From: an uncultured Gammaproteobacteria bacterium
GTDB lineage: Bacteria > Patescibacteriota > Microgenomatia > Levybacterales > UBA12049
Assembly (NCBI GenBank): GCA_964637955.1
Contig: CAZWXQ010000002.1
Location: 7,782 to 71,781 of the forward strand
DNA length: 64,000 nucleotides
Direction: 5' to 3'
The notes beneath the pieces were generated by a model. It saw nothing but the letters and a program-made list of their open reading frames with translations, searched no databases and had not been told where the DNA came from. Position 1 is the first letter of the stretch. Each line of letters starts with the position of its first letter. Position numbers and translations under genes: made by a program. Below are positions 335 to 16,026 of the stretch, one piece after another.

Positions 335-406
335 GGATCGGTAGTTCACTGGTAGAACGCTTCACTGATAATGAAGAAGTAGATGGTCCGATTCCATCCC
401 GATCCA
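335..406 (+). tRNA. tRNA-Ile (anticodon GAT)
   Basis: Hand-folded cloverleaf: acceptor GGATCGG/CCGATCC, D-stem GTTC/GAAC, anticodon stem CTTCA/TGAAG with loop CTGATAA (GAT at 367-369), T-arm GATGG-TCCGATT-CCATC, discriminator A; no encoded CCA. Confidence 0.8.
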
Positions 407-430
407 CATTTTTAAATCTGCTCCAGATTT

Positions 431-7301: not shown

Positions 7302-8849
7302 CTAGATTATATTTAGAGGAGGAACTTTTTGGTCGATTCCTAAAAATGTTTCAACGTCTTGTCTAGAAATATTTACAAGTTCTTCTTTTTTCTTATCTTC
7401 TGGACAGAATTGTTTGTAAAGAGTAGGAAGCATGACTGTAATAAAATCGTTTAAAGGAATAGATTTGGTTGCCTCGATAACTTTTTTAATATTTGCTGGA
7501 TCTTGATAAAGATACATATCAAGTGCAGTTGCTGAGACTCTTTCGCCGTTATGTTCAAGAAATGCTAAATGTGGTCTATATAATATGAAGTCATCAGTTA
7601 TGCTCGCATTTGCATCATTTGCTGATTTTTCATCTCCAACTTCCTTCATCATTTCTATGTATTTTTCCTTCATTTCAGTAAGATAAGATGTTTGACTTGG
7701 GCCTCCTCCTAAGATCAGGCCGTAATAAAAGGAAAGTACGGTAAATGTTAGAAGTAGACTTGGAATTATTTCTTTATTTAAAATCGCCTTCTCAATGTCT
7801 TTTGGTGTAAGAGTTAATTCATAATTTTTATTTTTATTAACTAATTTATTTCCTTCACGTTGTAATTGAAATCTCATTCCATCATCCTTTGAGTATCCCC
7901 AGAAAAGAAATGTTCCTGATGCTTTATCAGCACTAATTGAGCCTGTAACTCCGTTAAAATATTTTTCTATTAGATCAAGATAGGATGAATTAAATATGAA
8001 CTTATGTACAGGAGTTTCCTGGTTTAGATGATATCTCAGAAGCAAGTTTAATAGAATTTTTTCTTGAGAAAGCATAATGTAATTAGGAATTTGGCTTTCT
8101 TTGAATGAGGGGAATAGTTTTCTCCAAAGATAATAATTAACTATAGTTAATTGGTCTGAGTAATCAGCTCCAGTCATTGCATGTGGATTGCTAAAGATAG
8201 AAGTGGTTAATTTATCTAAGATTTGTTTATGCTCATCGCTTAAATTAGATTCTCGTCTAACGTTCTCAATTTTACTTCGCATCTCCTTTATTTCGCTTGC
8301 GCTATAAGGTGCGCTATACATAACAGTTTGAGGATCTTTTGATCTGCTGAAGAATGAAATATTGTTGTCAATGATTTGATCATCTTTGAAAGTATGGAAT
8401 TGAAATCCTCTTGAGAAAGATAAAACATTATCATATGAAGCATTTGTGCATGAAAGAATAATTACGTTAAAAAATCTTGGATCAACATTATTAAACATTG
8501 ACAGAGCTTGACTAAGTCCTGCATTTAAAGTTTGTGCAGTTCCGAGCGGGGCAGTGTGTTCAGCTGTAGATAGGCTATCATTTTTCTTTAATTGATTTTT
8601 TACCTCTGAGGCTACAGTGCTACCTAAAAGCCTTGAAGTTTCAGAAGTAACTACATCGATTATTTCATTTTTTCTTTCATTAAAATCTTTATGAAGATTT
8701 ACTCTATTTTTTTTCTTTACATAATCAAAGTAGGAAAGTTGCCCATAAGTTTCTTTAATTTTTTTAATTTGAGGACGGCTTAAGAAAATACTTTTTTCCA
8801 TCTCTTCGAGCCTTAAAGATGTCACTTTATTGTTGTTTGAGTTCTTCAT
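7302..8849 (-). CDS. hypothetical protein (515 aa)
   Basis: ORF track; no recognisable motif. Confidence 0.4.
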   Translation of the reverse strand: MKNSNNNKVTSLRLEEMEKSIFLSRPQIKKIKETYGQLSYFDYVKKKNRVNLHKDFNERKNEIIDVVTSETSRLLGSTVASEVKNQLKKNDSLSTAEHTAPLGTAQTLNAGLSQALSMFNNVDPRFFNVIILSCTNASYDNVLSFSRGFQFHTFKDDQIIDNNISFFSRSKDPQTVMYSAPYSASEIKEMRSKIENVRRESNLSDEHKQILDKLTTSIFSNPHAMTGADYSDQLTIVNYYLWRKLFPSFKESQIPNYIMLSQEKILLNLLLRYHLNQETPVHKFIFNSSYLDLIEKYFNGVTGSISADKASGTFLFWGYSKDDGMRFQLQREGNKLVNKNKNYELTLTPKDIEKAILNKEIIPSLLLTFTVLSFYYGLILGGGPSQTSYLTEMKEKYIEMMKEVGDEKSANDANASITDDFILYRPHLAFLEHNGERVSATALDMYLYQDPANIKKVIEATKSIPLNDFITVMLPTLYKQFCPEDKKKEELVNISRQDVETFLGIDQKVPPLNII

Positions 8850-8983: not shown

Positions 8984-9011
8984 TTGACAAATGCGTAAAA
9001 TACGCTATAAT
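8984..9011 (+). promoter_or_regulatory. sigma70-like promoter TTGACA-N16-TATAAT driving the tRNA-like gene
   Basis: TTGACA 8984-8989, TATAAT 9006-9011, tRNA-like 5' end at 9025. Confidence 0.55.
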
Positions 9012-9024
9012 TCACTCAATATTT

Positions 9025-9115
9025 GGAGGGGTCGCATAGCTGGCCTATTGCACCCAACCGTTTACGGGAAAGTTTCTGCTTCGCAGAAGCGTACGTTCGA
9101 ATCGTACCCCCTCCG
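9025..9115 (+). tRNA. class-II (long variable arm) tRNA-like gene; anticodon arm non-canonical, identity unresolved
   Basis: Acceptor GGAGGGG/CCCCTCC, T-arm GTACG-TTCGAAT-CGTAC, variable-arm hairpin TTTCTGC-TTCG-GCAGAAG, 3-bp D-stem GCA/TGC; but anticodon region CCC-AACCGTTTAC-GGG gives only 3-bp stem/10-nt loop by eye. Confidence 0.45.
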
Positions 9116-9827
9116 CAAATATTCTTGAAGATCTTCTTTAAAGAATAAAAAATTTTATATTTATACCCCTTTAGATCCTCAACCTTAAATTTTATCATTT
9201 TCAAAGTTTGTATTATTCAAAAATAAGAAATGGAGAATGGAGATAACAATTTTGTATTCTAGTCTACCGTATAGATCAAGAAAGAATCGTCATATACATT
9301 TGCATTTTTTCTAATGGGGCTCTTACTTGAAAATATCTATAATCATCAAGTTTCATAAGAAATTTATTTTCATCTCTCCTTTTAACTACAAAAATTACAT
9401 CGTCAGACTTATTTGATTCTATTCTTTTAGCTGCTATTGAGCTATAAATAGGTGAGCTATCGCCTCCGGTTGTGAATTGCCAAATCTAGTATTCGCGTCC
9501 ATGTGTAGCAGGTGATGTAGGCATTTCTTCTACCTTAAATTCGAAATTTATTGGGTTATGACAATTATTTACTAATTTTAATTTACCATACATCTGCATC
9601 AATTTTTTAGAAGAATCTACAATAAAGAGCGAAGGTTTATTATGACATCCTGAGGTGTTTGATTGAGTGGTGGTTTTATTTTGAAGAGCGAACGTTGTTG
9701 CAAGTAATCCAGGGGAAGCTGCTTAAATAACTACTATGTTAAAAAATGATTTTGAGCTAAAGCCGGAATATTTTCTTTTTGCCATTATTTATATAGTAAG
9801 CAGATTGTTTTTGTATTGTCAAATATT

Positions 9828-12650
9828 TTAATCTCCCTGCTTTGTAGAAAGTTCTCTTAGAAATAAGTTGTAATCATCCTGATTAATTTTTCCATCATCG
9901 CTTAAATCAGCTCGAGTTTTTTTCGAAGCATCGCTGCAGTTTTTTGCCGGCAAAAGGTCGCTGTAGCAGTCAGTTATTATGCTAAAGTCTAGAGAATTTA
10001 GTTTATTGTCTAGATTTGAATCACCAATTGTTAATGAAACATTTGGAGCTTGATTTAAAGCATTTTTGGTAATAGTGGGAATTCCCGTTAGCTGTCTTTT
10101 AAGATATTTGTCGATTTTTACTTTAATCGTATAAGGGCTAGTTGGGAGAATGGAGGGAATAGTAACGTCTCCTGAAAAATCACCCGTAGAAGGATTGTAG
10201 GATACGTTTCCTTGACTAGTGCCTACAAGGCTTCCTGAAAAATCAAATAGTTCAACTGTGATTACTCTTACAGCAGTGAGAGGATTTGGATTTCCAGGAG
10301 CGTTTGGATTTGAGTTATCTCCACCTCGACCAATTCCATGAAGTTTTACACTTGGAAAATGGAGAATTGTTGTGCCTGGAATTGGGGTAGGAATATTTGT
10401 CACTGGAGCACTCGTAAGAATTGGCATAGGACTAGGAGATGGGGTTGGGGTTTTAGTCGGAGTTGGAGATTTTGACGGCGTTGGTGTTTGGGTAACTGGA
10501 TTTGCAGCTTCGATACTATAGCTAACTTGTTTTGTTTTGCTAAATGTTGAGTTAGCACTATTTTCAACAGTAATTTTGGTTAAATATGGGTTCTGATCAG
10601 CGGTAGCGTTTAATGCTGGAGAAGTTACATCTAAAACTACTGTTGTTTGTGCACCTGAAGCCAGCGTAACGCTTGTTCGTCCAAATATAGCTGTCCAGTC
10701 TTCTGGTGGGACACTATTTAAATCAAATGTAGCATCAGGACAGGTAGAGGAGTTGTTGTTTTTTATGGTGATTGAATATCTTACTTTTTCTCCCATTGAT
10801 CCACTAAGCGCAGGTTCTGCAATGATTAAAGAAGGGTCCAATTTTTCACAGGGAGGTGGGCCAATGATAACGCTAAGCGTAACAGACTCCGTATCATGTG
10901 ATAACTGTTTTATAGTGACATCGTTCCTAGTATCAGAAAATGTCATATTGTCTTTAAATGTGGTGTTTAAAAGTCCTCCTCGTCCTGAGCTGTCTGTTTT
11001 ATCTACATCAATAAGATATGTTTGTTTTGTTCTCCATTCATCAGAAATTCCTCCGCCTTCATTAGTCATAGCAGGAGGATTTAAGTCAGAAATTCTAAGA
11101 AGAGCGCCTTCATAAAGTGAAGTTGGACCACCTCCGTCGCCATTATTTTTACTTTTATAATCAAGATAATAATTCCCGCCGTCAGTTGGGCGATCTATTA
11201 TTAGTGTTTGAACTTGATTTGATCTGTTTTTGGAGCCTGAATAGAGGGTATATGTTCCGCTAGTAGTTATGGTTTTTTTATTTGTGCTTGGGAGCCAACC
11301 TAAAAGAATTTTGTTTTTTACATTTGTATGTGAATGATAGTCCCATGCGCCTCCTATGAGATCAAATCTATCGCCATATCTGTAGAGAGTACAACTTCCA
11401 AATGAAGATATTTGTTTTGAACCGCATAAAAAAGCATGTGCATGGGAGAGTCCTAAGCTATGACCAACTTCATGGGCCAAAATTCCTGAATAAAACTTAA
11501 TTGCTGATGCTCCGTCAAGGGGTCCATGGTCGAAGCTATTTAGTCCATCATAATCTCCGTTTAGGAAATGAATTGGTTGAACTATGTTATCTCCAGGAAT
11601 GCCATAGGTAATAGCATTCCAATTGCAGTAGGGACCTACTGTTTCCTGATCATCAATAGAGGGGAAGACATAAGCTCTTATATTATAATCAGCAAAAGTT
11701 TTTCCTCTGCTTGTTGCGATAGGTTTTACCAAATCATTTATGGCTTTTTTAAAGCCTTTGGCGGCCTCTGTTTCTTCATAAATATCGCAAACATCGCGTC
11801 TTGTGTATCCTGGAAGATCGATCCATCCATATACATCATTTATGTCTCCTTGTATCGTGACATTTCCCATAGTCGCATCATTTATGTAATTGGCAACAGA
11901 ATTGGGAGCGCTGAAGTAGATTGTTTCGAGCTGCTGCTTAGTGAAGTTGTCAGTTACATCTGAATCGTCATTTTTAAAATTTACCATAATAACAGCAAGT
12001 TTATTAACTCCCGATGTATTTATTCCCAGAACATCTTGACCTGGTAGAAAATTGATATTTCTTGTCTGAAGATTTTCCTTCCCGATTTTAATTGGAACTA
12101 AAACATTGTCAATTAAATATCCTTCAATTTTTGCACGTCCATCAAAATCAGGTTCAAGACCTTCTCTTATGTAAAGCTCATATGTTCCTGTGCTGTTGCC
12201 TTCAGAGTCGACTGTTTGAAAAATAAGAGTAGGGACTTTAGAGTTATTTTTATTTTTCCTTTTAGGATTATGTTCCTCAACAATCTCTTCAGAGATTACT
12301 CCATTAAGTTCCACTTTTTCTTCAATATTTTTTTGAGCATTAACAGGAAGAGTATTTTTAATATCTTTTGGAATTACTATCAACAGAAATTTTTCAGGAT
12401 CATTTTTGGCAAGAGCTTTCATTTTATCTTTTCTTTTTGAAGAAGCGATAATTTTACCCGTATTGTCCGATTTATTAGAAAGAAGATCTTTCGACAATTC
12501 GCTGACATCATCGCTTAAATCAGCTCGACTTCGTAAATCATTTACATGATCTTTTGAAAGGACAATTATTGCAATTGATGTGAGTATTAAGAGGATTGAA
12601 AAGATTCCAATAGCTGCTCTTTTCCTGGAAAAAGATGTACTACTATTCAT
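9828..12650 (-). CDS. secreted/membrane-anchored metzincin-type zinc metalloprotease with PT-linker and C-terminal dockerin-like module
   Basis: N-terminal TM anchor; HEVGHSLGLSH (HExxHxxGxxH, residues 393-403, nt 11444-11474); domain NATFDLNSVPPEDW...; PT linker TQTPTPSKSPTPTKTPTPSPSP; C-terminal DSNLDNKLNSLD-FSII and DLSDDGKINQDD-YNLFL Ca-loop/helix repeats (D/N at 1,3,5,9,12). Confidence 0.6.
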   Translation of the reverse strand: MNSSTSFSRKRAAIGIFSILLILTSIAIIVLSKDHVNDLRSRADLSDDVSELSKDLLSNKSDNTGKIIASSKRKDKMKALAKNDPEKFLLIVIPKDIKNTLPVNAQKNIEEKVELNGVISEEIVEEHNPKRKNKNNSKVPTLIFQTVDSEGNSTGTYELYIREGLEPDFDGRAKIEGYLIDNVLVPIKIGKENLQTRNINFLPGQDVLGINTSGVNKLAVIMVNFKNDDSDVTDNFTKQQLETIYFSAPNSVANYINDATMGNVTIQGDINDVYGWIDLPGYTRRDVCDIYEETEAAKGFKKAINDLVKPIATSRGKTFADYNIRAYVFPSIDDQETVGPYCNWNAITYGIPGDNIVQPIHFLNGDYDGLNSFDHGPLDGASAIKFYSGILAHEVGHSLGLSHAHAFLCGSKQISSFGSCTLYRYGDRFDLIGGAWDYHSHTNVKNKILLGWLPSTNKKTITTSGTYTLYSGSKNRSNQVQTLIIDRPTDGGNYYLDYKSKNNGDGGGPTSLYEGALLRISDLNPPAMTNEGGGISDEWRTKQTYLIDVDKTDSSGRGGLLNTTFKDNMTFSDTRNDVTIKQLSHDTESVTLSVIIGPPPCEKLDPSLIIAEPALSGSMGEKVRYSITIKNNNSSTCPDATFDLNSVPPEDWTAIFGRTSVTLASGAQTTVVLDVTSPALNATADQNPYLTKITVENSANSTFSKTKQVSYSIEAANPVTQTPTPSKSPTPTKTPTPSPSPMPILTSAPVTNIPTPIPGTTILHFPSVKLHGIGRGGDNSNPNAPGNPNPLTAVRVITVELFDFSGSLVGTSQGNVSYNPSTGDFSGDVTIPSILPTSPYTIKVKIDKYLKRQLTGIPTITKNALNQAPNVSLTIGDSNLDNKLNSLDFSIITDCYSDLLPAKNCSDASKKTRADLSDDGKINQDDYNLFLRELSTKQGD

Positions 12651-13283
12651 TTACTGCGAAATAACTTGATTTGTCGGAGAAGGAGATAACGTGTCTTCTG
12701 AAGGAAGGTTCTCAATATAGCCTGAGACCATATCTTTTAGTACTGATTTATCTGTGCCAGAAGCTTGAATGGAAGTTTTAGGTAAAAAATTAATTTGAGC
12801 AGGGGAGCTTCCTGTTTTCGTAAATGTGATAACCGCAACGGTTCCTTTTCCTTGTTTTCCTTTTTGATTTGGTTTCATACCGCTCCAAAATTTAATTCTA
12901 CTATCTGCTGGAGTAATAATTTTTTGTTTTACATCAGCATCAGCGAAAAAGTTACCAGGCTTTATATCAATTATATTTATAAGTTTTGGATCGTAGCTCA
13001 TTTCTAGTTGTGCGAATGTGACCATGTTATTATTTGTATCTATATTTACATCTACTTCATATGCGCCAGATGAAGTGCTAGGTCTAACATCTTCAGAAAA
13101 CATAAGGCTGGTTTGGGCAACATCTTTAGCGACGTTTTCGGATGCTGTAGGTTTATAAAAAGTATTTTTTGCAGTCAGACTTACTACCAAAAGAATCACG
13201 GTAACAATTACAAGGACGGCAACGAGAAGCCAAGTCTTGTTCATTTTTGCTTTCGGTTGTTGTTGGTTTGGGACATTTTCCAT
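12651..13283 (-). CDS. membrane-anchored cohesin-domain protein
   Basis: N-terminal signal-anchor WLLVAVLVIVTVILLVVSL; LEMSYDPKLINIIDIKPGNFF and GTVAVITFTKTGSSPAQINF closely match type-I cohesin motifs (cf. C. thermocellum CipA FVYSYDPNVLEIIEIKPGELI / ATIVAKVKSGAPNGLSVIKF from memory). Confidence 0.55.
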   Translation of the reverse strand: MENVPNQQQPKAKMNKTWLLVAVLVIVTVILLVVSLTAKNTFYKPTASENVAKDVAQTSLMFSEDVRPSTSSGAYEVDVNIDTNNNMVTFAQLEMSYDPKLINIIDIKPGNFFADADVKQKIITPADSRIKFWSGMKPNQKGKQGKGTVAVITFTKTGSSPAQINFLPKTSIQASGTDKSVLKDMVSGYIENLPSEDTLSPSPTNQVISQ

Positions 13284-13287
13284 ATTT

Positions 13288-16026
13288 TTACAGTGGAAGC
13301 TGTGAACCTCCTTGATTTGCTACTTCTTTTAGCCAAAGCGTAAAGTCATCTTCATCAACTATTCCATTATCGTCTAAATCTGCATACGTTTGATAGTTGG
13401 GATTTACATCACAAGCTGATCTGTCCTGAGAGTAGATAGAGCAGCTCACTAAAATATTGTAGTCGTTTAAGTCTAAATTATTGTTTGATCTATCTATTTT
13501 ATTTATATCTCCAGTTATCATATCTAAAGTTTGGGCTGTTTTATTCATTCCCCGAGTTAAGGTAACAGATCCAGGTAGTTGACCTCTGAGAACCTGAGGG
13601 CCCTCAACGTAAACATTATAAATTCCTGATTGGAAATTATCGCCAAAACTTAGTGCTCCTTCAAACTTTCCACTTGCAGGATTATAGGTGACTGTATGGT
13701 CTTGAAATACATCTGCAGGGGTATTACTTGCGGCATTATACATTCTGACAGTTAAATTTCTGTTGGCACGTTCCGGATTTTTATTTCCACCGATTGGAGT
13801 TCTGGCAGTAGTTCCAATTCCGTCAATTCCAATAATTAAATTTAGATTTGTTTGCCCTGGAATACTAGTGATTGTTGGTGGATTACTAATTACGGGTTCC
13901 TCACTAATGGTTGGATCCTGGCTGATAACTGGGTCATTACTTATAACAGGATCTTGGCTAATGGTTGGATCAATAGCCTGTACATCATAAGTTACGTTCT
14001 CAGATATAAGAGGGCCATTTGTTCTTTGAATGTTAACTGTGAAGGTGGCGGGTCCATTCTCTGCATTATTAGGAGAGCTGACTGACATGGTAGTGCTTTT
14101 TGTATTTCCAGGTGCTATGTCTAGTGAATCTTTTTCAAGAGTAGAATCCCATCCGATAACACCAATTTTACTTATGTCAAAAGTGGCGTTATCACACTGC
14201 GCAGTATCATTATTTTTAATTTCAATGGTGAAATCTTTTTTGTCTCCTGCATTTCCACTTCTGGAATTTGGCTTTACATCTAGAGTTGGTCTATTTTTAA
14301 CACAAGTTGGAGCTGGGTCAGGAGTTGGATCTGTTCCGCCACCGCCTGATCCTCCTCCAGAAGGCTTAGTAGTCTTGTAGGCGTCTGTTTGGAAGTTATT
14401 GCCTTCATTCGATTCTGAGATATTTCCTACTGAATCAACAAAAACAGAAGCAATATAATCGCCCGCATTTGGCCTTGGCATATTGGTAAAGTGACTAGAT
14501 AAAGGTATCTCTTCATTCGGAGACACTACTTGCGTTACTGTCCAGGTTTTAGTAGCTCCACCGTCCCTATTAATTACTTTAACCTGAAAATCACCTGTGA
14601 TTTGTGCATTTCCAATATTTTTAATTTTTACAATTGGGTCAGATGTTCCTGTATCAACTCCGCCTGGAAATGTGAATGCTGAAACTACGAGATCTCTTGT
14701 GGCTGCTGGTTGTGTTTCTATCTTTTTAATTCCAAAATGAACAGTTCCACTCGCTCCTAAATCAATATTGGCTCCATCAGCAGTAGGATTGTTTGTTATG
14801 TTTTCTGAAGGAATTAAGTAATTTAGCTTTGTTGAGGCATAACCAGAAGGTATTAATAATTTTACTGTAATTTTATTTGCATTCGTTTTTGTTGTAACAG
14901 AATAATTATTTCCGTTCTTTGTGCTTGCGTCACCCGCAGCCTGCACAGTGTATGGGCTAGTGAAAAGTGCTTCAGTGCCATTTTTTTTACCATCATTCGC
15001 TGTTCCTCCTCCCGCACCATTATCTATAAAGACATATCCAGTGAATGAGAGTGTTTTCGTAGAACTAATTGGTGCGCATTCATTTGAAGAGTTGCAATTT
15101 CCAGATCTACATACTTGAGATTCCGGGGCAGAACAGTCTTGAGTTGTTGCTACCTCTCTGCAGTCAGTGTAATTTGGTTTTGTGGTCAGAGTTTTAGTTT
15201 GAGTTCCTGATCCTGGGCCACATGTTCCGCCATCTGGTTTAGGTATGCTGTTTTTTGCCTTACAAGTGCCTAATTTTGCACCAGCTGTGCAGTTCGGAAT
15301 AATAGAACATTTATGAGTATCTGTATTGCAAGTTTTGTCTGTTCCACAACCTCCGCAGGCTAAGCTAGTTCCACCAACGGTGAATGTTCCACAATAATTA
15401 TTTGCATTACAAAGACTATTTTTATATGTTGTTAAGTCTGAACATTTATCGGTGGTGGGTGCGCAGTATTTAAAATTTGGATTTGATGAACATTGGCTAT
15501 TAGAGGTACATTTTATGCAGTTAGTTGAAACATTTTCGTCGCAGTAAGATCTTAGACCAAATTGTACACTTCTGTCACCTCTGGTAATGTCAAAGCTGGT
15601 AGTTGTGCCTTTTTTTGTAACTGGCGAACTGGAAGGATTATCATAGAATATGTGAGTATAATTAAGTGTTCTATTTGGAGCAGTAATTTTTACTCTATAA
15701 TAATCTTCGCCAAGTTCATATAAGTCTGGGTCATTAGGTTTTAGGGTAATTGGAATTTCGAGTATAGATCCTGAACAGCTAGTCTGCGATGTTTTAGTGA
15801 GAGTTCTTGTTCCGCTTGCATCAGTTACCTGGACAGTAAAACTGCCATTATAGCAAGAATCTCCGTCTCTGCGACCATTAATATTGTAGTCGCTGTTACC
15901 GTTATCATCTACAAGCGTGGCAACATTAAGCCTGTAATTTGCTGCATGTGCTTTTTGAGGAATAATTAGAGATGCTAAGCTAAATAATAGAGGAAATAAC
16001 AATAGAGCAATAGTAATTTTTTTCAC
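13288..16026 (-). CDS. giant secreted adhesin-like protein: Cys-rich repeats, CARDB-like domain, DPxIS tandem repeats, C-terminal dockerin-like module
   Basis: Signal peptide MKKITIALLLFPLLFSLASLIIPQKAHA; >40 Cys in EGF-like spacing; CARDB-like DLVVSAFTFPGG...IKNIGNAQITGDFQVKV...VDSVGNISESNEGNN; C-terminal DLDDNGIVDEDD-FTLWLKEV (perfect Ca-loop) preceded by degenerate repeat DINKIDRSNNNLDLNDYNILV. Confidence 0.55.
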   Translation of the reverse strand: MKKITIALLLFPLLFSLASLIIPQKAHAANYRLNVATLVDDNGNSDYNINGRRDGDSCYNGSFTVQVTDASGTRTLTKTSQTSCSGSILEIPITLKPNDPDLYELGEDYYRVKITAPNRTLNYTHIFYDNPSSSPVTKKGTTTSFDITRGDRSVQFGLRSYCDENVSTNCIKCTSNSQCSSNPNFKYCAPTTDKCSDLTTYKNSLCNANNYCGTFTVGGTSLACGGCGTDKTCNTDTHKCSIIPNCTAGAKLGTCKAKNSIPKPDGGTCGPGSGTQTKTLTTKPNYTDCREVATTQDCSAPESQVCRSGNCNSSNECAPISSTKTLSFTGYVFIDNGAGGGTANDGKKNGTEALFTSPYTVQAAGDASTKNGNNYSVTTKTNANKITVKLLIPSGYASTKLNYLIPSENITNNPTADGANIDLGASGTVHFGIKKIETQPAATRDLVVSAFTFPGGVDTGTSDPIVKIKNIGNAQITGDFQVKVINRDGGATKTWTVTQVVSPNEEIPLSSHFTNMPRPNAGDYIASVFVDSVGNISESNEGNNFQTDAYKTTKPSGGGSGGGGTDPTPDPAPTCVKNRPTLDVKPNSRSGNAGDKKDFTIEIKNNDTAQCDNATFDISKIGVIGWDSTLEKDSLDIAPGNTKSTTMSVSSPNNAENGPATFTVNIQRTNGPLISENVTYDVQAIDPTISQDPVISNDPVISQDPTISEEPVISNPPTITSIPGQTNLNLIIGIDGIGTTARTPIGGNKNPERANRNLTVRMYNAASNTPADVFQDHTVTYNPASGKFEGALSFGDNFQSGIYNVYVEGPQVLRGQLPGSVTLTRGMNKTAQTLDMITGDINKIDRSNNNLDLNDYNILVSCSIYSQDRSACDVNPNYQTYADLDDNGIVDEDDFTLWLKEVANQGGSQLPL
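13864..13971 (-). repeat. six tandem 18-bp repeats encoding DP(T/V)IS(Q/N/E) inside the adhesin gene
   Basis: Visible tandem periodicity in DNA and protein (DPTISQ DPVISN DPVISQ DPTISE EPVISN PPTITS). Confidence 0.6.

What the first reader, a model, noticed from the sequence alone, without database searches (positions are those of the whole stretch)
8984..9125. Strongly promoted class-II tRNA-like gene whose anticodon arm does not fold canonically
A perfect TTGACA-N16-TATAAT promoter sits 13 nt upstream of a 91-nt RNA. The RNA has a clean 7-bp acceptor stem, a canonical T-arm (GTACG-TTCGAAT-CGTAC), a long variable-arm hairpin and a 3-bp D-stem. However, the anticodon region (CCC-AACCGTTTAC-GGG) gives only a 3-bp stem and a 10-nt loop by eye. 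No Leu, Ser or Tyr anticodon sits in a standard 7-nt loop. Possible explanations are a tRNA with an expanded anticodon loop, a tRNA carrying a short intron or indel, or a tRNA-like regulatory RNA. A TTCTTTAAAGAA palindrome follows the gene.
Basis: seen in the sequence. Interest (0 to 1): 0.55.

Follow-up and report, generated by a model that had tools for sequence, protein, structure and literature searches.

The report
Anticodon-less tRNA-like RNA beside synthetase-like gene
This is a real, strongly promoted, tRNA-shaped RNA that has kept a perfectly conserved amino-acid-accepting half but lost its anticodon, and it always sits beside a gene for an uncharacterised enzyme folded like a tRNA synthetase, so it probably carries an amino acid for something other than protein synthesis.

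Summary
Window 9025-9115(+) is a 91-nt class-II tRNA-shaped RNA behind the window's only perfect TTGACA-N16-TATAAT promoter. ARAGORN and Rfam's tRNA model both miss it.

It is neither a pseudogene nor a decoding tRNA. I recovered 12 distinct orthologues from related uncultured, probably CPR, bacteria.
- **Conserved half:** the acceptor stem, G73, D-stem and T-arm are invariant, and the elbow tertiary nucleotides are invariant or nearly so. A canonical tRNA-Ile in the same lineages changed 5 of 7 acceptor pairs.
- **Variable arm:** it covaries, with 4 of 6 pairs showing compensatory changes.
- **Anticodon arm:** it drifts freely, from a 3-bp stem with a tetraloop to an 8-bp stem with a tetraloop. 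ARAGORN gives five different amino acids, two undetermined two-base anticodons, or no call.

Every locus holding a homologue of the neighbouring 515-aa protein (7302-8849, -) has exactly one copy. That protein has no Pfam, NCBIfam or PDB sequence match. Its AlphaFold model (pLDDT 95) matches BshC (E 3e-7) and class I lysyl-tRNA synthetase (E 7e-3). A glycosyltransferase gene is usually adjacent.

Best reading (about 0.45, inferred): a dedicated non-ribosomal aminoacyl carrier working with this enzyme.

The parts
8984..9011 (+). Sigma-70-type promoter: -35 TTGACA (8984-8989), 16-nt spacer, -10 TATAAT (9006-9011)
   Evidence: It is the only 12/12 match in the window, with 0.08 expected. Equivalent TTGACA-N16/17-TATAAT (or TACAAT) promoters precede 11 of the 12 orthologues.
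9012..9024 (+). Short 5' leader, presumably removed by RNase P (inferred)
   Evidence: The -10 box ends 13 nt before G1. The canonical tRNA-Ile gene of the same window has the same layout, with TATAAT 11 nt before the tRNA. No transcript data are available.
9025..9115 (+). The tRNA-like RNA (91 nt, G1 to discriminator G73)
   Evidence: Sequence and fold. One orthologue is present in each of 12 related loci, scoring 86-117 bits with covariance model R1. It is not called by ARAGORN in the window or by Rfam RF00005 anywhere.
9025..9031 (+). Acceptor stem, 5' strand GGAGGGG; pairs with 9108-9114
   Evidence: All 7 pairs are invariant in 12 distinct sequences.
9034..9051 (+). D-arm: 3-bp stem GCA/TGC and a 12-nt loop carrying A14, G15, G18, G19 and A21
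   Evidence: The stem and the tertiary-contact nucleotides are invariant; only loop positions 16, 17 and 20-22 vary.
9053..9068 (+). Vestigial anticodon arm CCCAACCGTTTACGGG (3-bp stem; no anticodon)
   Evidence: The MFE fold gives CCG-UUUA-CGG. This region differs in length and shape in every lineage.
9073..9089 (+). Long variable arm: 6-7-bp hairpin (TTCTGC-TTC-GCAGAA)
   Evidence: 4 of 6 pairs show compensatory double changes across orthologues. 91.7% of cells are paired, even with L010 misaligned.
9091..9107 (+). T-arm GTACG-TTCGAAT-CGTAC, preceded by C at 9090 (the position-48 equivalent, partner of G15)
   Evidence: The stem is invariant. The loop is invariant except G57 to A in L007 and L015.
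9108..9118 (+). Acceptor 3' strand CCCCTCC, discriminator G (9115) and trailer CAA; CCA is not encoded
   Evidence: G73 and C74 are invariant. Trailers are CAA, CAC, CAG, CCA, CCT or CAT in orthologues. The window's tRNA-Ile also lacks an encoded CCA.
9134..9156 (+). TTCTTTAAAGAA palindrome followed by an A/T run: a weak possible terminator
   Evidence: The terminator scan does not call it. Orthologues L002, L018 and L010 have clear GC-rich hairpin plus T-run terminators at this place.
7302..8849 (-). Divergently transcribed 515-aa protein with a BshC / class I aaRS-like fold; the RNA's constant genomic partner
   Evidence: No Pfam, NCBIfam or PDB sequence match. The AF2 model (pLDDT 94.9, pTM 0.94) matches BshC 4wbd (E 3.1e-7) and class I LysRS 1irx (E 6.8e-3). 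The RNA was found in every locus that carries a homologue.

Best explanation
The RNA is a tRNA-derived molecule that no longer decodes. It keeps everything a tRNA needs at the acceptor end and the elbow: a 7/5 acceptor-T helix, G73, the D/T-loop tertiary nucleotides and a class-II variable arm. It has lost the anticodon.

Proposed pathway:
1. It is transcribed from its own strong promoter.
2. It is matured like the genome's ordinary tRNAs: RNase P at the 5' end, then 3' trimming and CCA addition.
3. It serves as the dedicated substrate of the adjacent BshC / class I synthetase-fold enzyme.

Most likely it is esterified with an amino acid at its 3' end. The charging enzyme could be the neighbour itself. 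Alternatively it could be a housekeeping synthetase that ignores anticodons; SerRS fits the G73, C11-G24 and long variable arm. The aminoacyl group would then be passed to a non-ribosomal acceptor. A sugar or envelope precursor made by the glycosyltransferase usually encoded next door is the obvious candidate. Lacking an anticodon would keep this pool off the ribosome.

Shown: the RNA's anatomy, its conservation pattern, its transcription signals, its linkage to the protein, and the protein's fold. Inferred: processing, charging, the amino acid, the acceptor, and which enzyme does which step.
For: 1. Selection acts on the acceptor half and not on the anticodon. The acceptor, D-stem and T-stem never vary in 12 distinct sequences, and the variable arm covaries (4 of 6 pairs compensatory). 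The anticodon region is free in length and sequence.
2. Baseline comparison between window and L013. The canonical tRNA-Ile is 52/72 identical, with 5 of 7 acceptor pairs changed. The tRNA-like top half is 51/54 identical, and its anticodon plus variable region is 24/37 identical. The partner protein has diverged to 38% identity in the most distant lineages sampled, L010 and L011.
3. Window versus L002: promoter and RNA are 100% identical, while the downstream flank cannot be aligned.
4. Linkage. There is exactly one copy in each of the 12 loci carrying the protein family's close members. In 9 of 12 it lies 108-245 bp from the protein's start codon, divergently oriented. In the other 3 it is one gene away.
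5. The partner's high-confidence model matches BshC and class I LysRS. GluRS, MshC and CysRS follow only at non-significant E-values of 3.7-9.6.
6. A GT4 or GT2 glycosyltransferase gene lies next to the RNA in 9 of 12 loci. In 7 it starts 28-77 nt downstream on the same strand; in L007 and L019 it lies between the RNA and the protein. L013 adds a PIG-L deacetylase and a GNAT Acetyltransf_6 protein. This echoes the bshA/bshB/bshC and mshA-D gene sets.
7. Distant family members are fused to ATP-grasp ligase domains. Others sit with an L-amino-acid ligase and a FemAB_like protein. These are amino-acid-transfer contexts.
8. The gene architecture matches the window's true tRNA-Ile: its own promoter and no encoded CCA.
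Against: - There are no expression, end-mapping or charging data.
- The fold match has modest global TM scores (0.40-0.42). No HIGH or KMSKS motif is recognisable in the family consensus, so ATP-dependent aminoacylation by the neighbour is unproven.
- BshC itself is not known to use any RNA.
- Distant homologues on Streptomyces, Nitratidesulfovibrio and Sinorhizobium plasmids have no tRNA-like RNA nearby. The RNA partnership may therefore be confined to one small clade.
- The window itself has no GT4 gene.
- Linkage was examined only in 12 loci that were found through the protein. The reverse test, RNA without the protein, gave nothing new.
Confidence: 0.45

Rival explanations
1. It is a regulatory or processing tRNA mimic. 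In this reading the uncharged tRNA-shaped RNA does one of three things. It could be a cleavable 5' module of the downstream glycosyltransferase mRNA, with RNase P and RNase Z defining the mRNA end. It could be a decoy or sensor that titrates a tRNA-binding protein. Or it could be a tRNA-like element inside a longer regulatory RNA, as proposed for Bacillus cereus tRNA-Other.
For: In 7 of 12 loci a glycosyltransferase gene starts 28-77 nt downstream on the same strand. In L004, L006 and L013 I see no terminator between the two. B. cereus tRNA-Other is a precedent for a pseudo-tRNA embedded in larger regulatory transcripts (PMC3399842).
Against: The window, L002, L010 and L011 have no co-directional gene downstream. 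L002, L010 and L018 have strong intrinsic terminators directly after the RNA. A mere processing signal would not need an invariant acceptor-stem sequence, G73, or a covarying variable arm. No T-box or other leader was found.
Confidence: 0.25
2. It is a structural RNA cofactor or scaffold of the 515-aa protein that is never acylated. One version is a stable ribonucleoprotein in which the tRNA shape positions the enzyme or its substrate.
For: The same linkage and sequence-invariance data apply. The synthetase-like fold implies tRNA-shape binding capacity.
Against: The invariant G73, C74 and acceptor helix are the parts used in 3'-end chemistry. There is no precedent for such an RNP among BshC or class I aaRS-like proteins. 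This reading cannot be separated computationally from the best explanation.
Confidence: 0.15
3. It is a genuine decoding tRNA with a non-standard anticodon loop (6, 8 or 10 nt, or a mini-intron).
For: The acceptor, D, T and variable arms are perfectly tRNA-like. ARAGORN can force a 7-nt loop in some orthologues.
Against: The forced calls disagree (Thr, Glu, Ile, Asn, two-base 'anticodons', or none) for orthologous genes. L010 has an 8-bp stem and a 4-nt loop, and L017 a 5-bp stem and a 3-nt loop. Position 33 is C and position 37 is U where a 7-nt loop exists. Rfam's tRNA model rejects all copies.
Confidence: 0.04
4. It is a decaying tRNA pseudogene that happens to sit behind a chance promoter.
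For: The anticodon arm looks degraded, and a pseudogene remnant lies just downstream in the window at 9312-9785.
Against: The top half is 100% invariant across lineages in which a real tRNA's acceptor stem turned over. The variable arm shows compensatory substitutions. Consensus promoters are retained in 11 of 12 loci and terminators in several.
Confidence: 0.03

Closest known systems
Bacterial class II tRNAs (tRNA-Ser, tRNA-Tyr, tRNA-Leu)
   Same: It has the 7/5 acceptor/T geometry, U8, A14, G18G19, A21, the TTCGAAT T-loop, a 3-bp D-stem and a long base-paired variable arm. G73, G1-C72, G2-C71, A3-U70 and C11-G24 are the E. coli tRNA-Ser identity set (my own knowledge). GGAGGGG/CCCCUCC is also the acceptor stem I recall for Bacillus subtilis tRNA-Tyr; that recollection was not checked here.
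   Different: It has no 5-bp/7-nt anticodon arm, no conserved anticodon, and no U33 or purine-37. It is rejected by Rfam RF00005 and by ARAGORN in the window. G73 differs from the A73 of Tyr and Leu.
Bacillus cereus tRNA-Other (pseudo-tRNA; PMC3399842)
   Same: It is a bacterial tRNA-derived RNA that does not work in translation and is linked to cell-envelope phenotypes. From my own knowledge (Ataide et al. 2005, not checked here), it is charged by class I together with class II LysRS. Class I LysRS is the second-best fold match of the neighbour here.
   Different: tRNA-Other retains an anticodon arm, is restricted to the B. cereus group, flanks a genomic island, and appears to act within longer regulatory transcripts. 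There is no sequence relationship, and no dedicated synthetase-like gene lies beside it.
Non-proteinogenic tRNA-Gly of Staphylococcus and other aa-tRNA donors for FemXAB/MurM, MprF, L/F-transferase and cyclodipeptide synthases
   Same: The concept is the same: an aminoacyl-tRNA pool diverted to non-ribosomal acyl transfer. Cyclodipeptide synthases are class I aaRS-fold enzymes that use aa-tRNA and need only the acceptor arm (PMC3105412 and PMC7672478, listed).
   Different: Those donors are still complete tRNAs with anticodons, charged by the normal synthetase. Here the anticodon is gone and the RNA has its own linked enzyme.
BshC (bacillithiol cysteine-adding enzyme, PDB 4wbd) and MshC
   Same: BshC is the best structural match of the partner protein (Foldseek E 3e-7, prob 1.0). 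Here a GT4 gene is usually adjacent and a PIG-L deacetylase is present once, echoing the bshA/bshB/bshC gene set; bshA and bshC themselves are reported to co-occur and occasionally co-localise (PMC5790435).
   Different: No sequence-level similarity is detectable: Pfam and NCBIfam give no hit for 68 family members. BshC has no known RNA partner.
Allo-tRNAs, selC* tRNA-Cys and tRNA-Sec (PMC5389517, PMC7609411)
   Same: They have a long variable arm, an unusual cloverleaf and G73, and are found by metagenome mining. selC* tRNA-Cys comes with its own dedicated CysRS* that lacks the anticodon-binding domain.
   Different: Those have 8/4, 9/3 or 8/5 acceptor/T geometry and functional anticodons. 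This RNA is 7/5 with no anticodon.
tmRNA tRNA-like domain
   Same: It is a tRNA top half without an anticodon that is processed and charged like a tRNA.
   Different: tmRNA has a G3-U70 alanine identity pair, a reduced D-arm and a large mRNA/pseudoknot insert. It is detected by ARAGORN and Rfam; this RNA is not.

Membership tests
Canonical tRNA (Rfam RF00005) | 7-bp acceptor stem, 5-bp T-stem with a T-psi-C loop, and a D-arm with G18G19, A14 and U8 | tested here: met
   Read directly from the sequence. These features are invariant or nearly so in 12 orthologues.
Canonical tRNA (Rfam RF00005) | 5-bp anticodon stem with a 7-nt loop, U33, purine-37 and a conserved anticodon | tested here: not met
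   The window has a 3-bp stem with a 4- or 10-nt loop. Orthologues vary from a 3-bp stem with a 4-nt loop to an 8-bp stem with a 4-nt loop. ARAGORN's assignments conflict.
Canonical tRNA (Rfam RF00005) | Scores at or above the family's gathering threshold (29 bits), or is called by a tRNA finder | tested here: not met
   No clan CL00001 match even at E <= 10 in the window. None of 10 orthologues reaches gathering. ARAGORN is silent in the window, L002, L006 and L010.
tRNA-Ser (substrate of SerRS) | Long variable arm, G73, G2-C71 and C11-G24; the anticodon is not read by SerRS | tested here: met
   All are present and invariant. The identity rules come from E. coli work (my own knowledge). They have not been verified for these organisms.
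tRNA-Ser (substrate of SerRS) | Actual serylation by SerRS | not testable with these tools
   This needs an in vitro charging assay or acylation-sensitive sequencing.
tRNA-Sec / allo-tRNA | 13-bp or 12-bp acceptor branch in 8/5, 9/4, 8/4 or 9/3 form, and a 6-bp D-stem | tested here: not met
   The geometry is 7/5. The D-stem is 3 bp, with a U13-U22 or U13-G22 fourth position.
tmRNA | tRNA-like domain with G3-U70 plus a tag reading frame; detected by ARAGORN and Rfam | tested here: not met
   The pair is A3-U70, the RNA is 91 nt with no insert, and neither tool calls it.
BshC family (partner protein) | Structural similarity to B. subtilis BshC | tested here: met
   Foldseek against 4wbd gave E 8e-7 and 3.1e-7 (prob 1.00, TM 0.40-0.42) with two independent models.
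BshC family (partner protein) | Sequence membership (a Pfam or NCBIfam BshC model) | tested here: not met
   No Pfam or NCBIfam hit for the window protein. No BshC hit for any of 68 diverse relatives.
BshC family (partner protein) | Genomic association with a BshA-type GT4 glycosyltransferase and a BshB-type PIG-L deacetylase | tested here: inconclusive
   A GT4 gene is adjacent in 8 of the 12 loci; L013 has a GT2 next to the RNA and a GT4 just beyond the protein. The BshA and MshA models are among the top hits but score far below their cut-offs (63 versus 274 bits). PIG-L occurs only in L013. The window has no GT4.
Class I aminoacyl-tRNA synthetase (partner protein) | Catalytic Rossmann (HUP) fold | tested here: met
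   Class I LysRS 1irx gives E 6.8e-3 and prob 0.99. GluRS, MshC and CysRS appear only at non-significant E-values of 3.7-9.6.
Class I aminoacyl-tRNA synthetase (partner protein) | HIGH and KMSKS signature motifs | tested here: inconclusive
   The family consensus has ...VSTADHHGP... after the first strand (T95 and H98 nearly invariant) and ...YLTxMK.... Neither is a canonical signature.

The most novel reading that the evidence does not exclude
A previously unrecognised two-part system: a synthetase-fold enzyme and its own anticodon-less tRNA form an orthogonal aminoacyl-carrier pair for non-ribosomal acyl transfer to a glycoside or envelope precursor. By extension, BshC-fold enzymes in general would take their activated amino acid from an acyl-tRNA-type donor. 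That would answer why the BshC reaction of bacillithiol synthesis has never been reconstituted with free cysteine and ATP.
Probability: 0.3. Interest if true: 0.9.

Novelty: new variant of a known kind. Interest (0 to 1): 0.72.

Why it matters
tRNA-derived RNAs that have left translation are few: tmRNA, viral tRNA-like structures and B. cereus tRNA-Other. None is known as a stand-alone, anticodon-less, full class-II cloverleaf that keeps a sequence-invariant acceptor half and has a dedicated synthetase-fold partner.

If the RNA is charged, this would be a natural example of a tRNA kept out of the genetic code and used purely as an amino-acid carrier. That would interest researchers working on tRNA identity, on orthogonal pairs for synthetic biology, and on the poorly known cell-envelope biochemistry of CPR bacteria.

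It also assigns a first functional context to a protein family of roughly a thousand 50%-identity clusters that has no Pfam model. Finally, it offers a concrete, testable hypothesis for the long-missing activated substrate of BshC-type enzymes (PMC5790435).

Tried and rejected
- **Rfam:** scans at gathering and at E <= 10 gave only chance hits for the region, namely the complement of the T-arm against a plastid 3'UTR motif and a leu/phe leader.
- **Phage collection:** blastn found nothing relevant.
- **Exact-protein look-up of the neighbour:** it found only a 2.3-kb copy of the same sequence.
- **Collection scans for the RNA:**
  - Genome contigs returned only the two contigs already found through the protein.
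  - Metagenome contigs returned two known relatives plus an unrelated class-II-like tRNA.
  - The family is therefore rare in these collections, and I could not widen it.
- **Sequence annotation of the 515-aa protein:** Pfam, NCBIfam, a PDB profile search and a 68-member per-sequence Pfam scan all failed.
- **Distant plasmid homologues:** I looked for a tRNA-like RNA beside them and found none.
- **Literature:** searches for a described equivalent found none; terms included CPR tRNA-like RNAs, anticodon-less tRNAs, and BshC with tRNA.
- **Considered and rejected:** tRNA-Sec or allo-tRNA (wrong 7/5 geometry), tmRNA, an intron-containing tRNA, a pseudogene, and the 45-aa and 62-aa ORFs overlapping the RNA. 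The conserved signal is RNA-structural, not coding.
Full report
**1. The observation**

- A TTGACA-N16-TATAAT promoter lies at 8984-9011. It is the only perfect match in 64 kb; shuffles give 0.08 expected.
- It ends 13 nt before a 91-nt RNA at 9025-9115.
- The RNA has a 7-bp acceptor stem (GGAGGGG/CCCCTCC), U8 and a 3-bp D-stem.
- Its D-loop carries A14, G15, G18, G19 and A21.
- It has a 6-7-bp variable-arm hairpin, C at the position-48 equivalent, a GTACG-TTCGAAT-CGTAC T-arm and discriminator G.
- CCA is not encoded; the trailer is CAA.
- Where the anticodon arm should be, there are 16 nt (CCCAACCGTTTACGGG). They can form only CCC/GGG or, in the MFE structure, CCG-UUUA-CGG (-35.9 kcal/mol, z = -3.3).
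- ARAGORN finds only a tRNA-Ile elsewhere in the window.
- Rfam's tRNA clan gives nothing for this region, at gathering or at E <= 10.

**2. It is a conserved gene, not a relic**

The neighbouring 515-aa ORF (7302-8849, minus strand) has about 20 homologues at 38-88% identity. I fetched contigs for 11 of them. A metagenome pattern scan added one more locus, L015.
- Every locus contains exactly one orthologue of the RNA: nhmmer E 1e-30 to 6e-15 and covariance model R1 at 86-117 bits.
- In L002 (protein 88% identical), the promoter and RNA are 100% identical to the window. The upstream spacer has substitutions and a 9-nt deletion. The downstream flank cannot be aligned and carries a textbook intrinsic terminator.
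- Eleven of the twelve orthologues are preceded by TTGACA-N16/17-TATAAT-type promoters.
- L002, L018 and L010 have strong terminators.

**3. The conservation pattern is the inverse of a decoding tRNA's**

In the 12-sequence alignment A4, the acceptor stem, D-stem, T-stem, G73, C74 and the tertiary-contact nucleotides never vary or nearly never do.
- The variable arm keeps its helix through compensatory changes in 4 of 6 pairs, with no shuffle reaching the observed covariation score.
- The anticodon position is different in each lineage:
  - 3-bp stem with a tetraloop (window, L007).
  - 3-bp stem with a pentaloop (L018, L019).
  - 5-bp stem with a triloop (L017).
  - Bipartite hairpins (L006, L012, L013).
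  - A perfect 8-bp stem with a TTTA tetraloop (L010).
- ARAGORN reads the orthologues as nothing, ???(gt), ???(aa), Thr, Glu, Ile or Asn.
- None of 10 orthologues reaches Rfam's tRNA threshold.
- As a baseline, the canonical tRNA-Ile(GAU) of the window and of L013 is 52/72 identical, with 5 of 7 acceptor pairs replaced. The tRNA-like RNA's acceptor/D/T half is 51/54 identical between the same two lineages, and its anticodon plus variable region is 24/37 identical.

Selection is therefore sequence-specific on the acceptor/elbow half, shape-specific on the variable arm, and absent on the 'anticodon'. This excludes both a pseudogene and a decoder with an odd loop.

**4. Maturation (inferred)**

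The window's genuine tRNA-Ile gene has the same architecture: its own -10 box 11 nt upstream, and no encoded CCA (A73 is followed by CAT). The tRNA-like RNA keeps every feature used by RNase P and the CCA-adding enzyme, namely the acceptor-T helix and the elbow. Ordinary tRNA processing is therefore the parsimonious expectation. No transcript data were available.

**5. The partner protein**

The 515-aa protein has no Pfam, NCBIfam or PDB sequence match.
- An exhaustive profile search shows it belongs to a sizeable unannotated family. There are 966 50%-identity clusters at E <= 1e-3 and 376 at E <= 1e-30.
- None of 68 sampled members hits any Pfam family convincingly.
- An AlphaFold model from a 19-sequence alignment (pLDDT 80) and a second from 68 sequences (pLDDT 94.9, pTM 0.94) give the same answer:
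  - BshC of B. subtilis (4wbd): E 8e-7 and 3e-7.
  - Class I lysyl-tRNA synthetase (1irx): E 0.08 and 7e-3, prob 0.99.
  - GluRS, MshC and CysRS appear further down the list, at non-significant E-values.

It is thus a class I synthetase / BshC-type nucleotide-binding fold. No canonical HIGH or KMSKS motif is evident in the consensus.

**6. Genomic context**

The RNA lies 108-245 bp from the protein's start codon, divergently oriented, in 9 of 12 loci. It is one gene away in the other three.
- A GT4 or GT2 glycosyltransferase gene lies next to the RNA in 9 of 12 loci. In 7 it starts 28-77 nt downstream on the same strand. In L007 and L019 it lies between the RNA and the protein.
- Those GT4s hit the BshA and MshA models among their best, but far below cut-off.
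- L013 adds a PIG-L deacetylase and a GNAT Acetyltransf_6 protein.
- L010 and L011 have alanine racemase adjacent, and L011 has two paralogues of the enzyme.
- Some distant family members carry C-terminal ATP-grasp domains.
- On Streptomyces plasmids a 24%-identical homologue sits between an L-amino-acid ligase, an amidinotransferase, an MFS transporter and a FemAB_like protein. No tRNA-like RNA accompanies those distant homologues.
- The window itself has no GT4 gene.

**7. Mechanism**

The simplest model that accounts for all of this is a non-decoding aminoacyl (acyl) carrier. The RNA would be matured and CCA-tailed like a tRNA and esterified at its 3' end. The synthetase-fold neighbour would use it either as the charging enzyme or as the transferase.
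- Cyclodipeptide synthases are a precedent for class I-fold enzymes that consume aa-tRNA and need only the acceptor arm.
- The invariant acceptor sequence and G73 fit an enzyme that cannot use an anticodon for recognition.
- The Ser-type identity set (G73, G2-C71, C11-G24, long variable arm) leaves SerRS as an alternative charger.
- Loss of the anticodon would insulate the pool from the ribosome.
- The likely acceptor is a sugar or envelope intermediate made by the adjacent glycosyltransferase, by analogy with GlcN-malate in bacillithiol synthesis.

I put this at about 0.45. Charging, the amino acid and the acceptor are all inferred. The rivals are a regulatory or processing mimic (0.25), an unacylated RNP cofactor (0.15), a true decoder (0.04) and a pseudogene (0.03).

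**8. Comparison with known systems**

No Rfam family, Pfam family or paper in the searchable library describes this pair.
- The closest RNA analogues are class II tRNAs (its evident ancestors), B. cereus tRNA-Other, the non-proteinogenic tRNA-Gly of staphylococci, and the tmRNA tRNA-like domain. It fails the defining anticodon-arm test for tRNA membership, and the geometry tests for tRNA-Sec and allo-tRNA.
- The closest protein analogue is BshC. The BshC reaction 'has yet to be reconstituted in vitro', and its activated cysteine donor is unknown (PMC5790435). A BshC-fold enzyme with a hard-wired tRNA-like partner makes an acyl-tRNA-type donor a testable idea for that problem.

**9. Organism**

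The likely source is a Candidate Phyla Radiation (Patescibacteria) bacterium; this is inferred. The supporting evidence is:
- 35-37% GC.
- Many proteins without Pfam or other family assignment.
- DUF5667 neighbours.
- A 16S rRNA gene in L007 stretched to about 2.05 kb by an ORF-bearing insertion. From my own knowledge this is a CPR hallmark.

The GenBank titles say 'uncultured Gammaproteobacteria'. That looks like a placeholder.

**10. Verdict**

- It is a new variant of a known kind (tRNA-derived non-decoding RNA) with a plausible route to something categorically new.
- Interest is 0.72.

Noticed in passing
window 9312-9785 (-): The roughly 700-bp 'empty' stretch downstream of the RNA is the decayed remnant of a gene. 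tblastn with the intact 181-aa ORF of relative L002 (5001-5546) gives 38% identity over 163 aa (E 3e-28). The window has no ORF of 50 aa or more there.
   Followed up: partly
L014 1-4028 (JAEIGA010120514.1): An unrelated 4-kb metagenome contig carries 11 tRNA genes. Two are odd long ones: an 86-nt 'tRNA-Thr(UGU)' and a 90-nt 'tRNA-Ile(UAU)'. The first has a D-arm and a 5' anticodon-stem start (GTCGCATAGCGGCCGATTGCACCC) almost identical to the tRNA-like RNA's, but it has a canonical anticodon arm. It scores 56 bits with model R1 and could resemble the ancestor.
   Followed up: partly
L007 629-2673; L013 4223-5840; L010 1-407; L012 1-375: The RNA/enzyme locus lies within a few kb of the 16S rRNA gene in four relatives. 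The L007 16S gene is about 2.05 kb because of an insertion carrying an ORF with a 23S_rRNA_IVP domain, and a LAGLIDADG gene lies next to it.
   Followed up: no
window 9828-16026 (-): Three large secreted-looking proteins lie just downstream. The first is a 940-aa protein with an HExxH-like metalloprotease motif (HEVGH) and a C-terminal dockerin. The second is a 210-aa cohesin protein. The third is a 912-aa CARDB/NPCBM_assoc protein. This is a cohesin-dockerin pair in a probable CPR genome.
   Followed up: no
L011 771-2399 and 3644-5293; L010 1932-4843: One lineage has two 58%-identical paralogues of the synthetase-fold protein flanking an alanine racemase gene, but only one copy of the RNA. 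Its sister lineage, L010, has one paralogue next to the racemase. This hints that (D-)alanine could be the amino acid handled.
   Followed up: partly
P0087, P0117, P0134 (family members): Some 845-942-aa members of the protein family carry a C-terminal ATP-grasp (RimK-like) ligase domain. On Streptomyces plasmids (L020) a distant member lies in a small biosynthetic cluster with an L-amino-acid ligase, an amidinotransferase and a FemAB_like protein.
   Followed up: partly
L008, L009 (CAYRJZ010000004.1, CAYVKP010000004.1): The two GTDB representative genomes that carry the RNA are titled 'uncultured Gammaproteobacteria bacterium'. Their gene content (DUF5667, small hypothetical proteins, low GC) looks like CPR. 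The label is probably wrong.
   Followed up: no
window 335-407 (+): The canonical tRNA-Ile(GAU) stands alone with its own TTGCTT-N17-TATAAT promoter and no encoded CCA. It is not inside an rRNA operon, where this tRNA usually sits in bacteria.
   Followed up: no
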